Positions 39,301 through 42,300 of a stretch of DNA of 64,000 bases are shown piece by piece; position 1 is the first letter of the stretch; each line of letters starts with the position of its first letter. The stretch lies in NCBI RefSeq assembly GCF_030013205.1, contig NZ_CP122648.1, one strand, 5' to 3'. The DNA comes from Escherichia coli (GTDB taxonomy: Bacteria; Pseudomonadota; Gammaproteobacteria; Enterobacterales; Enterobacteriaceae). Made by a program: the position numbers.

Positions 39301-42300
39301 TTCGCCGCGCCAATGATACCGACTACGGTCTGGCGGCGGGTATCGTGACGGCGGACCTGAACCGCGCGCATCGCGTCATTCATCAGCTGGAAGCGGGTAT
39401 TTGCTGGATCAACACCTGGGGCGAATCCTCTGCTGAGATGCCCGTTGGCGGCTACAAACACTCCGGCATTGGTCGCGAGAACGGCGTGATGACGCTCCAG
39501 AGTTACACCCAGGTGAAGTCCATCCAGGTTGAGATGGCTAAATTCCAGTCCATATTCTAACCAGGAGGTTTATTTGCAATTTGACTACATCATTATTGGT
39601 GCCGGCTCAGCCGGCAACGTCCTCGCTACCCGTCTGACTGAAGATCCGAACATAACCGTGCTGCTGCTTGAAGCAGGCGGCCCGGACTATCGCTTTGACT
39701 TCCGCACCCAGATGCCCGCCGCGCTGGCATTCCCGTTACAGGGTAAACGCTACAACTGGGCCTATGAAACGGAACCTGAACCGTTTATGAATAACCGCCG
39801 CATGGAGTGCGGACGCGGTAAAGGCCTGGGTGGATCGTCGCTGATCAACGGCATGTGCTACATCCGTGGCAACGCGCTGGATCTCGACAACTGGGCGCAA
39901 GAACCTGGCCTGGAGAACTGGAGTTATCTCGACTGCCTGCCCTACTACCGCAAGGCCGAGACTCGCGACGTGGGCGAGAACGACTACCACGGCGGTGATG
40001 GCCCGGTGAGCGTCACCACCTCCAAACCCGGCGTCAATCCGCTGTTTGAAGCGATGATTGAAGCGGGCGTGCAGGCGGGCTACCCGCGCACGGACGATCT
40101 CAACGGTTATCAGCAGGAAGGTTTTGGCCCGATGGATCGCACCGTCACGCCGCAGGGCCGTCGCGCCAGCACCGCGCGTGGCTATCTCGATCAGGCCAAA
40201 TCGCGCCCTAACCTGACCATTCGTACTCACGCCATGACCGATCACATCATTTTTGACGGCAAACGCGCGGTGGGCGTCGAGTGGCTGGAAGGCGACAGCA
40301 CCATTCCGACCCGCGCGGCGGCGAATAAAGAAGTGCTGTTATGTGCAGGCGCGATTGCTTCACCGCAGATCCTGCAACGCTCCGGCGTCGGCAACGCTGA
40401 ACTGCTGGCGGAGTTTGATATTCCGCTGGTGCATGAATTACCTGGCGTCGGCGAAAATCTTCAGGATCACCTGGAGATGTATCTGCAATATGAGTGCAAA
40501 GAACCGGTTTCCCTCTACCCTGCCCTGCAGTGGTGGAATCAGCCGAAAATTGGTGCGGAGTGGCTGTTTGGCGGCACCGGCGTTGGTGCCAGCAACCACT
40601 TTGAAGCAGGCGGATTTATTCGCAGCCGTGAGGAATTTGCGTGGCCGAATATTCAGTACCATTTCCTGCCAGTGGCGATTAACTATAACGGCTCGAACGC
40701 AGTGAAAGAGCACGGCTTCCAGTGCCACGTCGGATCGATGCGCTCGCCAAGCCGTGGGCATGTGCGGATTAAATCCCGCGACCCGCACCAGCATCCAGCG
40801 ATTCTGTTTAACTACATGTCGCACGAGCAGGACTGGCAGGAGTTCCGCGACGCAATTCGCATCACCCGGGAGATCATGCATCAACCGGCGCTGGATCAGT
40901 ATCGTGGCCGCGAAATCAGCCCCGGTGTCGAATGCCAGACGGATGAGCAGCTCGATGAGTTCGTGCGTAACCACGCCGAAACCGCCTTCCACCCGTGCGG
41001 TACCTGCAAAATGGGTTATGACGAGATGGCAGTGGTTGACGCCGAAGGCCGCGTACACGGGCTGGAAGGCCTGCGCGTGGTAGATGCGTCAATTATGCCG
41101 CAAATTATCACCGGCAATTTGAACGCCACGACGATTATGATTGGCGAGAAAATGGCGGATATGATTCGCGGGAAGGATGCGTTGCCGAGGAGCACGGCGG
41201 GATATTATGTGGCAAATGGGATGCCGGTGAGAGCGAAAAAATGAGTCGTGATGTGAACTGACTCAGGAACCTATCAGATTGAGAGTTACCGTTCTACTAT
41301 GAGGACCGAATCCTTATATAAAACACTGAGGTAACTCTCATGCTTCATATCCAGTATTCATGATGCTGGTTTTTTGCTGATATTTAACCCGAACACTCCT
41401 GATACAGCCTATTAATTCATTTATCTGCGGCAGATTTTATTTTCTGGATATATTATGAGTGAACAAATCAAACAGGATATCGATCTGATTGAGATTTTAT
41501 TTTATCTGAAGAAAAAGATTCGTATTATCCTTTTTATTATAACTATCTGTATGGCAATGGTGCTGTTGTTTCTGTATATCAATAAAGATAATATAAAAGT
41601 GAGTTACAGCCTAAAAATAAACCAGACAACACCAGGCATACTTGTTAGCTGTGATAGCAATAATAACTTTGCCTGTCAGACCACAATGACTGAAGATGTT
41701 ATTCAGCGAATTACTACATTTTTTCAGACCAGCCCAGATGTCAAGAACAGAGAAATAAAGCTGGAATGGTCAGGAGATAAGAGAGATTTACCAACTGCTG
41801 AAGCGGAAATATCTCGCGTGCAGGCGTCTATTATCAAATGGTATGCGTCAGAATACCATAATGGCAGGCAAGTTCTCGATGAGATACAAACGCCTTCAGC
41901 AATTAACAGTGAGCTTTATACAAAAATGATATATCTGACCAGGAACTGGTCATTGTATCCGAACGGTGATGGCTGTGTAACTATAAGCTCACCAGAAATA
42001 AAAAATAAATACCCTGCTGCCATTTGCCTGGCTCTGGGATTTTTTCTAAGCTTTGTAATTTCTGTAATGTTTTGCCTTGTCAAAAAAATGGTAGATGAAT
42101 ACCAACAAAACTCTGGGCAGTAATAAACAGCATTCTGATAGAGAGTGCCTGTATAAAGCTGAAGTGACAATGACCGGGAAGGGAACCCGTTTTCAGGAAT
42201 GGATGCCTGTCTTTTTCACTGTAAATATCCTGGCATTACTAATGCCAGGATATTTACAGAAGAGCAGCATAACCATGACGGAACGGGGTTAAGTCAGGTT

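What the first reader, a model, noticed from the sequence alone, without database searches (positions are those of the whole stretch)
42219..42259. 19-bp perfect palindrome between convergent ykgH and ykgG
CTGTAAATATCCTGGCATT-ACT-AATGCCAGGATATTTACAG is a perfect 19-bp inverted repeat with a 3-nt spacer in a 242-bp AT-rich gap. It is longer and more perfect than typical terminator stems, and neither strand has a U-tract after it. It could be a dimeric protein-binding site, a very stable RNA hairpin acting as a 3' end stabiliser, or a relic of a small mobile element.
Basis: seen in the sequence. Interest (0 to 1): 0.45.

Follow-up and report, generated by a model that had tools for sequence, protein, structure and literature searches.

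The report
Lone 41-bp palindrome beside ykgH
A real but solitary 41-base perfect palindrome lies in the untranslated gap between two converging E. coli genes. It is neither a terminator nor a mobile repeat, is already imperfect in most strains, and most likely just forms a stable hairpin in read-through RNA with little dedicated role.

Summary
The palindrome is real and slightly larger than reported: two 20-nt arms around one central base (42219-42259). It is far beyond chance. It occurs at one locus only, in 5,141 of 5,426 complete E. coli genomes, with no copies on true plasmids, in phages or in viral contigs. It has no target-site duplication and no Rfam match.

Only 39% of genomes have the perfect form. 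K-12-type (36%) and B2-type (23%) strains carry one or two uncompensated changes near the centre.

Published K-12 Term-seq places the abundant ykgH-strand 3' end at window 42216, in a U-run 3 nt before the palindrome. No 3' end is listed at either base of the hairpin. Bicyclomycin data indicate Rho-dependent termination on both strands, beyond the palindrome on the ykgG strand.

Homology to the only distant ykgH relative stops exactly where the palindrome starts. Homology to ykgG of related bacteria stops at the stop codon, where some relatives have a GC-rich stem-loop that E. coli lacks.

Best reading (about 0.4): a locally generated inverted duplication at the edge of the AT-rich ykgH insert, acting as a passive, REP-like RNA stem-loop. 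A purely neutral relic is almost as likely. Interest is low to moderate.

The parts
42219..42238 (.). Left arm of the palindrome (CTGTAAATATCCTGGCATTA); contains a Dcm site, CCTGG
   Evidence: the outer 14 nt are identical in all three major haplotype classes
42239..42239 (.). Central unpaired base. It is C here and G or T in other E. coli lineages.
42240..42259 (.). Right arm (TAATGCCAGGATATTTACAG); contains a Dcm site, CCAGG
   Evidence: lineage variants at 42244 (K-12 type) and 42245 (B2 type)
42210..42216 (+). U-run TCTTTTT. Its last U (42216) corresponds to the mapped 3' end of the ykgH-strand RNA in MG1655 (324603, minus strand), 3 nt before the palindrome.
   Evidence: supplement 1 of PMC7815308: the listed 61-nt sequence ends 10 nt past the 3' end; the coordinate mapping is confirmed by hit H166 at 324560-324600
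42175..42209 (+). Two weak hairpins of the ykgH 3'UTR: CGGG..CCCG plus UUUU, then CAGG..CCUG. This is the terminator and putative Hfq-bound RNA module.
   Evidence: -5.1 and -3.3 kcal/mol; block conserved in L008; northern probes of PMC8175672 lie here
42217..42365 (.). Spacer with no homolog found outside E. coli. It holds the palindrome and lies between the end of ykgH-module homology and the ykgG stop codon.
41455..42123 (+). ykgH, an AT-rich orphan gene restricted to Escherichia (31-41% GC in its region)
42366..43061 (-). ykgG (lutC, LUD domain), the last gene of ykgEFG. Its transcripts read through the palindrome.
   Evidence: Rho region at 324913 (+)

Best explanation
The 41-bp palindrome is a one-off inverted duplication, produced by fold-back or template-switch synthesis. 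It formed at the downstream edge of the AT-rich, Escherichia-specific ykgH insert. It starts 3 nt beyond the ykgH transcript's normal 3' end, so it is transcribed only in read-through RNA: from ykgH past its weak terminator, and from ykgEFG, which in E. coli has no stem-loop of its own after the stop codon. In those RNAs it folds into a 19-bp stem-loop of -21 to -28 kcal/mol in every major haplotype. I infer that this stem-loop works passively, as single REP hairpins do. It would stop 3'-to-5' exonucleases that trim Rho-terminated ykgEFG transcripts, and it offers a double-stranded segment for RNase III. It is not sequence-specific and is under weak selection at most. Shown here: existence, single-copy status, position relative to mapped RNA ends, Rho-dependent termination on both strands (beyond the palindrome on the ykgG strand), lineage restriction and haplotype frequencies. 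Inferred: the origin by inverted duplication and the exonuclease-barrier role.
For: The stem is perfect and very stable on both strands. All three major haplotype classes keep a hairpin of -20.6 kcal/mol or stronger on both strands. The site is transcribed. MG1655 bicyclomycin data give Rho-dependent termination regions at 324578 (-), inside the palindrome, with score 3.5. They also give one at 324913 (+), about 460 nt past the ykgG stop, with score 6.7. The ykgG genes of related bacteria (82-86% identical protein) lose homology with E. coli at the stop codon. Two of those three contexts carry a GC-rich 10-bp stem-loop there that E. coli lacks. In E. coli the palindrome is therefore the dominant, by far the most stable stem-loop predicted downstream of ykgG. 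Homology with the only distant ykgH homolog runs through the 3'UTR to the U-run and ends exactly at the palindrome's first base. The ykgH region is 31-41% GC against 50-63% in its neighbours. The palindrome's edges are sharp, and the flanks show no significant further symmetry. The closest analogue is REP325, which stabilises the upstream mRNA and is a partly Rho-dependent terminator (bioRxiv 10.64898/2026.03.23.713779).
Against: K-12 Term-seq in three growth conditions lists no 3' end at either base of the hairpin. The only 3' end in the gap is upstream of the stem. ykgEFG may simply be poorly expressed in those media, and K-12 has the imperfect version. Arm substitutions are single transitions with no strand-consistent compensation: the K-12 change weakens the ykgH-sense hairpin and the B2 change weakens the ykgG-sense one. 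Variable columns number 1 of 30 in the outer arms against 33 of 201 in the flanks, which is not significant (Fisher p = 0.09). At least two of the 73 perfect-type matches below 99% identity or full length (L042, L043) carry uncompensated changes at the outermost arm positions. The perfect form is present in only 39% of genomes.
Confidence: 0.4

Rival explanations
1. It is a neutral mutational by-product with no function at all. A fold-back or template-switch event created the palindrome, it is too short to be toxic, and it is slowly decaying.
For: It is single-copy and lineage-specific, and it sits at a junction between unrelated sequences. 61% of genomes carry imperfect versions. There is no significant constraint relative to the flanks. 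Outer-arm variants are uncompensated. No RNA end, ChIP peak or annotation is attached to it.
Against: The outer 14 bp of both arms are identical across the three major haplotype classes, while the flanks differ by 3-7%, although this is not significant. Every major haplotype keeps a very stable hairpin. E. coli lacks the GC-rich stem-loop that some relatives have directly after ykgG, so the palindrome is the dominant stem-loop downstream of ykgG.
Confidence: 0.35
2. It is an operator or roadblock site for a dimeric or tetrameric DNA-binding protein. The bound protein would insulate the two converging transcription units, or help create the ykgH RNA 3' end 3 nt upstream.
For: It has perfect dyad symmetry with a freely varying central base. 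The terminator hairpin just before the mapped 3' end is weak at -3.3 kcal/mol, so extra help is conceivable. A weak genomic-SELEX peak lies in the ykgG/ykgH spacer, in what appears to be the RpoE holoenzyme table (position 323832, intensity 5.6; PMC5493296).
Against: Forty-one bp is long for one dimer. No known motif was recognised. Half-sites do not recur convincingly in the window. The terminator block is conserved in L008, which has no palindrome. There is no sigma-54 ChIP-seq or RpoN SELEX signal. The inner positions, usually the most specific in operators, are the ones that vary.
Confidence: 0.1
3. It is the relic of a small mobile element: a minimal MITE, or abutted IS terminal repeats.
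For: The arms look like terminal inverted repeats with CTG...CAG ends. The spacer repeatedly attracts IS elements.
Against: There is one locus per genome in 5,141 genomes. The only plasmid matches are very large records or 0.2-Mb K-12 plasmids, which I read as chromosomal sequence. Phages show nothing. IMG/VR shows only 14 single-arm 17-mer matches and none palindromic. Flanking direct repeats are absent.
Confidence: 0.05
4. It is an intrinsic or bidirectional terminator for ykgH and/or ykgG.
For: It is a stable stem-loop between convergent genes, where such terminators are common (PMC6060812).
Against: No U-run follows the stem on either strand. The T-run precedes it and A-rich sequence follows, the reverse of a bidirectional terminator. 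The terminator scan does not call it. The mapped 3' end is upstream of it. A Rho-dependent termination region is mapped on each strand, and on the ykgG strand it lies about 310 nt beyond the palindrome.
Confidence: 0.03
5. It is a pair of back-to-back sigma-54 promoter-like sites (TGGCAT-N5-ATGC has GG-N10-GC spacing on both strands).
For: The sequence resembles TGGCACG-N4-TTGC (consensus recalled from memory; sequence).
Against: No gene of this locus appears in the text of the MG1655 sigma-54 ChIP-seq paper or of the RpoN genomic-SELEX paper. The site would drive only antisense transcription. K-12 has lost the GC element on one strand.
Confidence: 0.02

Closest known systems
REP (repetitive extragenic palindromic) hairpins acting in 3'UTRs
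   Same: It is a stable stem-loop in the untranslated region between genes, here convergent ones. It is transcribed as part of the 3' end and lies in a region where termination is Rho-dependent. The expected effect is to protect the upstream mRNA from 3' exonucleases.
   Different: It is single-copy rather than one of hundreds. It is AT-rich (37% GC) with a perfect 20-bp stem, not a GC-rich imperfect stem of about 35 nt. It shows no sequence similarity to REPs, and no stabilising effect or 3' end at its base has been shown.
Rho-independent and bidirectional terminators between convergent genes
   Same: The position is the same, and most E. coli inverted repeats with arms of at least 8 bp near gene ends are terminators (PMC6060812).
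   Different: It lacks the U-run after the stem on both strands. The flanking T and A runs are in the wrong order. The mapped 3' end lies before the stem, and on the ykgG strand transcription continues beyond it.
Quasi-palindrome template-switch mutation sites (established E. coli mutagenesis literature; recalled from memory, not read here)
   Same: It is a near-perfect inverted repeat whose variants cluster at the centre. The K-12 type differs by three adjacent changes that together create a perfect palindrome in a shifted register.
   Different: No mutational assay exists for this site. The changes lie on both arms, so a single switch cannot explain them.
MITEs and solo IS terminal repeats
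   Same: Two inverted 20-nt arms with sharp ends.
   Different: There are no further copies anywhere searched, no target-site duplication and no internal sequence.

Membership tests
Intrinsic (Rho-independent) terminator | Run of U immediately 3' of the stem on the transcribed strand | tested here: not met
   AAGAGCAGC follows on the + strand and UGAAAAAGA on the - strand. The terminator scan does not call it.
Intrinsic (Rho-independent) terminator | Mapped RNA 3' end a few nt after the stem | tested here: not met
   The only curated K-12 Term-seq 3' end in the gap is 324603 (-), which is window 42216, 3 nt before the stem.
Bidirectional terminator | A-run 5' and U-run 3' of a shared hairpin | tested here: not met
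   The order is reversed: TCTTTTTCA-stem-AAGAG. On the ykgG strand the Rho-dependent termination region lies about 310 nt beyond the stem; on the ykgH strand it is centred within the stem.
REP/BIME, ERIC/IRU or other dispersed palindromic repeats | Many dispersed copies per genome | tested here: not met
   There are two BLAST places per genome, which are the two strands of one site, in 5,141 genomes. The flanks are single-copy. There is no Rfam family match.
REP-like 3' stabiliser (function, not family) | 3' ends piling up at the 3' base of the hairpin, and longer half-life of the upstream mRNA | tested here: inconclusive
   No such 3' end appears in K-12 Term-seq in LB or M63 glucose. However, K-12 has the imperfect stem, ykgEFG expression in these media is unknown, and half-life cannot be tested here.
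MITE / IS-end relic | Terminal inverted repeats plus target-site duplication plus related copies or a parent element | tested here: not met
   Inverted arms are present, but there is no duplication. No copies were found in E. coli genomes, true plasmids, phages or IMG/VR.
Transcription-factor operator | Dyad symmetry matching a known motif, or in vivo occupancy | tested here: inconclusive
   Symmetry is present, but no known motif was recognised. There is no sigma-54 ChIP or RpoN SELEX signal. There is only a weak holoenzyme SELEX peak in the spacer.
Sigma-54 promoter | GG-N10-GC elements and sigma-54 occupancy | tested here: not met
   The spacing is present in the sequence, but no gene of this locus is named in the ChIP-seq or SELEX papers. 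Those data are from K-12 only.
Quasi-palindrome template-switch site | Clustered multi-base changes that raise complementarity in one hairpin register | tested here: met
   The K-12 type differs at 42238, 42239 and 42244. These are exactly the three changes that turn TACTAATGCCA into the perfect TGGTAATACCA. The mechanism itself is not testable here.

The most novel reading that the evidence does not exclude
The palindrome is an active cis-element that makes the ykgH 3'UTR RNA. Either a protein bound to the dyad, or RNase III cutting the 20-bp stem in read-through RNA, would generate the abundant Hfq-associated 3' end mapped 3 nt upstream. The hairpin directly preceding that end is only about -3 kcal/mol (a longer interrupted fold reaches about -10). 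Lineage-specific remodelling of the centre would then retune this: the perfect form, the K-12 TGGTAATACCA form that resembles a GntR-type box, and the B2 form.
Probability: 0.08. Interest if true: 0.6.

Novelty: new member of a known kind. Interest (0 to 1): 0.25.

Why it matters
If the hairpin does protect or process ykgEFG (lactate utilisation) or ykgH read-through RNA, it would be a natural single-copy counterpart of REP elements. It exists as three natural alleles: perfect, K-12 type and B2 type. That gives a ready-made allelic series for testing how stem perfection affects mRNA 3' ends between converging genes. It also illustrates how long palindromes arise at the edges of acquired DNA and then drift between alternative hairpin registers. 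If it is neutral, the result still closes the lead: it is not a terminator, not a mobile repeat and not a recognised regulator site.

Tried and rejected
- **Rfam.** A scan of 41000-43500 gave only a chance microRNA match (E = 6.4).
- **Sigma-54.** The sequence resembles a sigma-54 site, but no gene of this locus is named in the ChIP-seq or RpoN SELEX papers.
- **Extended palindrome.** RNA folding pairs some flanking bases. Alignment of the reverse-complemented left flank with the right flank is no better than shuffles, so the edges are sharp.
- **Small ORFs across the palindrome** (42095-42292 and 42199-42411). The position of the AGGA just before the ATG looks too close for a ribosome-binding site. 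A 2-bp deletion in some strains breaks the frame of 42199-42411.
- **Outgroups through YkgH.** The genome-contig scan returned only two tiny contigs with near-identical ykgH sequence in actinomycete assemblies, read as E. coli contamination. L009 is an error-rich K-12-like assembly. L008 is the only real distant homolog, and it is not present in E. coli.
- **Recurring half-sites in the window.** These were at or near chance level.
- **Selection test.** On 14 strains it was not significant in either direction, which replaces my earlier cruder estimate.
- **More RNA-end data.** Supplements of Dar & Sorek 2018, Altuvia 2018, Conway 2014, Melamed 2016 and Gao 2018 are not held. Ju 2019 is not held at all.
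- **Metagenome scan.** Not run, because E. coli's own locus would swamp any pattern.

Full report
**Observation**

The window reads CTGTAAATATCCTGGCATTA-C-TAATGCCAGGATATTTACAG at 42219-42259. The repeat finder gives two 20-nt arms, 100% complementary, with one base between them.

No other arm copy exists in the 64-kb window with up to three mismatches, and none in shuffles. It is the only perfect close-spaced inverted repeat of at least 13 nt in the window. The chance expectation is about 2e-7 per 64 kb. A published genome-wide map notes that E. coli is poor in inverted repeats with arms of 13 bp or more (PMC6060812).

The hairpin is worth -27.8 kcal/mol as RNA on either strand and -19.1 kcal/mol as DNA. 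The gene context is as stated: ykgH 41455-42123 (+), ykgG/lutC 42366-43061 (-), and a 242-bp gap at 43.8% GC.

**Copy number and distribution**

The gap is present in 5,144 of 5,426 complete E. coli genomes. A 59-nt query centred on the palindrome finds exactly two places per genome, which are the two strands of one site, in 5,141 genomes. Both flanks are single-copy.

- The only plasmid hits are very large records or 0.2-Mb K-12 plasmids, which I read as chromosomal sequence.
- Phage genomes show nothing meaningful.
- IMG/VR holds only 14 single-arm 17-mer matches, none with both arms.
- Rfam has no family for it, and nothing is annotated in the gap in RefSeq records.

It is therefore not a repeat family or a mobile element, and it has no flanking direct repeat.

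**Variation within E. coli**

Fourteen strains give four haplotypes: perfect with centre C (this window), perfect with centre G (O157), the K-12 type (CATTG-G-TAATACC) and the B2 type (centre T, TAATGTC). Exact-match searches with each 41-mer give the counts below.

| Haplotype class | Genomes matched | Exact full-length records |
|---|---|---|
| Perfect (centre C or G) | 2,082 | 2,009 |
| K-12 type | 1,876 | 1,875 |
| B2 type | 1,175 | 1,171 |

Together these account for 5,133 of the 5,141 carriers. The perfect form is therefore found in about 39% of genomes.

All differences between the major types lie at 42238-42245. Seventy-three perfect-type matches fall below 99% identity or full length. 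Two that were inspected carry uncompensated changes at the outermost arm positions (CTTTAAAT, ATTTAAAT).

Variable columns are 1 of 30 in the outer arms, 3 of 11 in the centre and 33 of 201 in the flanks. Neither contrast is significant (p = 0.09 and 0.40). Each arm substitution is a single transition that leaves a G-U pair on one strand and a mismatch on the other. The favoured strand differs between the K-12 and B2 types, so there is no strand-consistent compensation. Every type still folds at -20.6 kcal/mol or better on both strands.

**Transcript ends (published K-12 data)**

Using x = 324453 + (42366 - w), the palindrome is MG1655 324560-324600. A K-12-like genome hit at exactly those coordinates confirms this mapping (H166).

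Adams et al. 2021 (PMC7815308) list one 3' end in the gap: 324603 on the minus strand, with scores of 43,492 and 126,276 in two of the listed Term-seq data sets. The accompanying sequence ends ...GCCTGTCTTTTTCACTGTAAAT. That table prints 10 nt beyond the end, so the 3' end is the last U of UCUUUUU. This is window 42216, 3 nt before the palindrome. No 3' end is listed at either base of the stem.

Their bicyclomycin data give two Rho-dependent regions: 324578 (-), inside the palindrome, with score 3.5; and 324913 (+), antisense to ykgH and about 460 nt past the ykgG stop, with score 6.7 (method). On the ykgG strand, RNA polymerase therefore crosses the palindrome and is stopped by Rho further on. 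On the ykgH strand, the Rho-dependent region is centred within the palindrome.

The ykgH 3'UTR itself is a putative Hfq-bound small RNA in RIL-seq (PMC5145812). Northern probes placed on CCGGGAAGGGAACCCGTTTTCAGG, upstream of the palindrome, failed to detect it, although RNA-seq reads accumulate there (PMC8175672).

**Origin**

YkgH homologs are confined to Escherichia. Nearly all are at least 70% identical, and the single exception is 53% identical. That most distant one is a metagenomic gene (L008). It sits in a different context and is absent from E. coli.

The alignment shows that homology continues from the gene through the 3'UTR block GTTTTCAGGAA.GGA..CCTG.CTTTTTC. It then ends precisely at the palindrome's first base.

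On the other side, ykgG of related bacteria (82-86% protein identity; L027-L031) aligns only up to the stop codon. Two of the three contexts then have a GC-rich 10-bp stem-loop (CCGCTCTGGC...GCCAGAGCGG) that E. coli lacks.

The ykgH region is 31-41% GC against 50-63% in its neighbours. The stretch 42217-42365, including the palindrome, therefore has no homolog outside E. coli in anything I searched. It lies at the seam between an acquired AT-rich cassette and ykgG. The palindrome's borders are sharp, because the flanks have no significant further symmetry. This fits a single inverted-duplication event.

**Mechanism**

A canonical terminator role is excluded. There is no U-run after the stem, the T and A runs are in the wrong order, the mapped end is upstream, and read-through is documented on the ykgG strand.

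The reading I favour, at about 0.4, is a passive REP-like stem-loop in read-through RNA. ykgEFG transcripts have no other comparably strong hairpin after the stop codon and are Rho-terminated downstream. Such transcripts are generally trimmed back to the first stable structure; this is general knowledge, and one search shows the REP325 analogue. The absence of a mapped 3' end at the stem base in K-12 counts against this. However, K-12 carries the imperfect allele, and ykgEFG expression in LB or glucose is unknown.

A purely neutral relic is nearly as likely (0.35). A protein operator or roadblock (0.1) is not excluded. The hairpin directly preceding the mapped end is weak, at -3.3 kcal/mol, which leaves room for help. 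But the same terminator block is conserved in L008 without any palindrome. No motif, ChIP signal or recurring half-site was found.

**Verdict**

The feature is real and non-random, and I found no description of it in the searchable literature. It is an ordinary kind of object: a lineage-specific intergenic hairpin or quasi-palindrome. There is no evidence of a dedicated function, and experimental evidence shows it is not where RNAs end. Interest is 0.25.

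Noticed in passing
window 42124-42216 (+): The ykgH 3'UTR has two small hairpins, each followed by a U-run, and ends at the Term-seq 3' end (42216). The block GTTTTCAGGAA.GGA..CCTG.CTTTTTC is conserved in the only distant homolog, L008 (53% protein identity). The first hairpin differs in sequence there but still pairs. This supports a genuine terminator and Hfq-associated RNA module, even though published northern blots were negative.
   Followed up: partly
window 42238, 42239, 42244 (K-12-type allele; L001 1518-1542): The K-12/phylogroup-A allele, found in 1,876 genomes, differs from the perfect palindrome by three clustered substitutions. These are exactly the three needed to create an off-centre perfect palindrome, TGGTAATACCA. 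That sequence resembles the TGGT-N3-ACCA core of FadR-subfamily GntR operators such as PdhR and LldR (recalled from memory). It lies downstream of the lactate-utilisation gene lutC. It could reflect template-switch toggling between hairpin registers or a new operator.
   Followed up: partly
L027 3125-3175; L030 3697-3750 (downstream of ykgG in related bacteria): In relatives, a GC-rich 10-bp stem-loop (CCGCTCTGGC..GCCAGAGCGG) follows ykgG immediately. E. coli has lost or replaced it, and its ykgEFG transcripts are Rho-terminated about 460 nt downstream inside antisense ykgH.
   Followed up: partly
L004 (RM9088), L044 (SW07163), L045 (EC7072022BGR), L005 (AH19D088), L010: Several independent IS insertions lie within about 150 bp of the palindrome. 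IS1 sits inside the left arm. Another IS1 sits in the first ykgH 3'UTR hairpin, with yahO now adjacent, which suggests loss of the intervening genes. An IS481-family element sits between the palindrome and ykgG. An IS3-family element replaces the ykgH side, and another IS lies inside ykgH.
   Followed up: partly
L003 (O157:H7), L043: ykgH is annotated as a pseudogene with an internal stop in O157:H7. In L043 the neighbouring CDS is only 501 bp (166 aa), apparently a truncated ykgH. The palindrome is intact next to these degraded genes.
   Followed up: no
L006, L007 (genome contigs): Contigs of 256 and 272 bp carrying near-identical ykgH sequence (94-100% protein identity) appear in assemblies labelled Nocardioides malaquae and Amycolatopsis orientalis. 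This is almost certainly E. coli contamination.
   Followed up: no
window 42229-42233 and 42245-42249: Each arm contains a Dcm methylation site (CCTGG / CCAGG). The B2-type change at 42245 destroys one of them (CCAGG to TCAGG). It alters the outer C, not the methylated C, so it is not a simple 5-methylcytosine deamination.
   Followed up: no
window 41455-42120: YkgH has only a sub-threshold match to the N-terminal part of the Wzz chain-length-determinant family (E = 1e-3, below the Pfam cut-off). It is otherwise an orphan.
   Followed up: no
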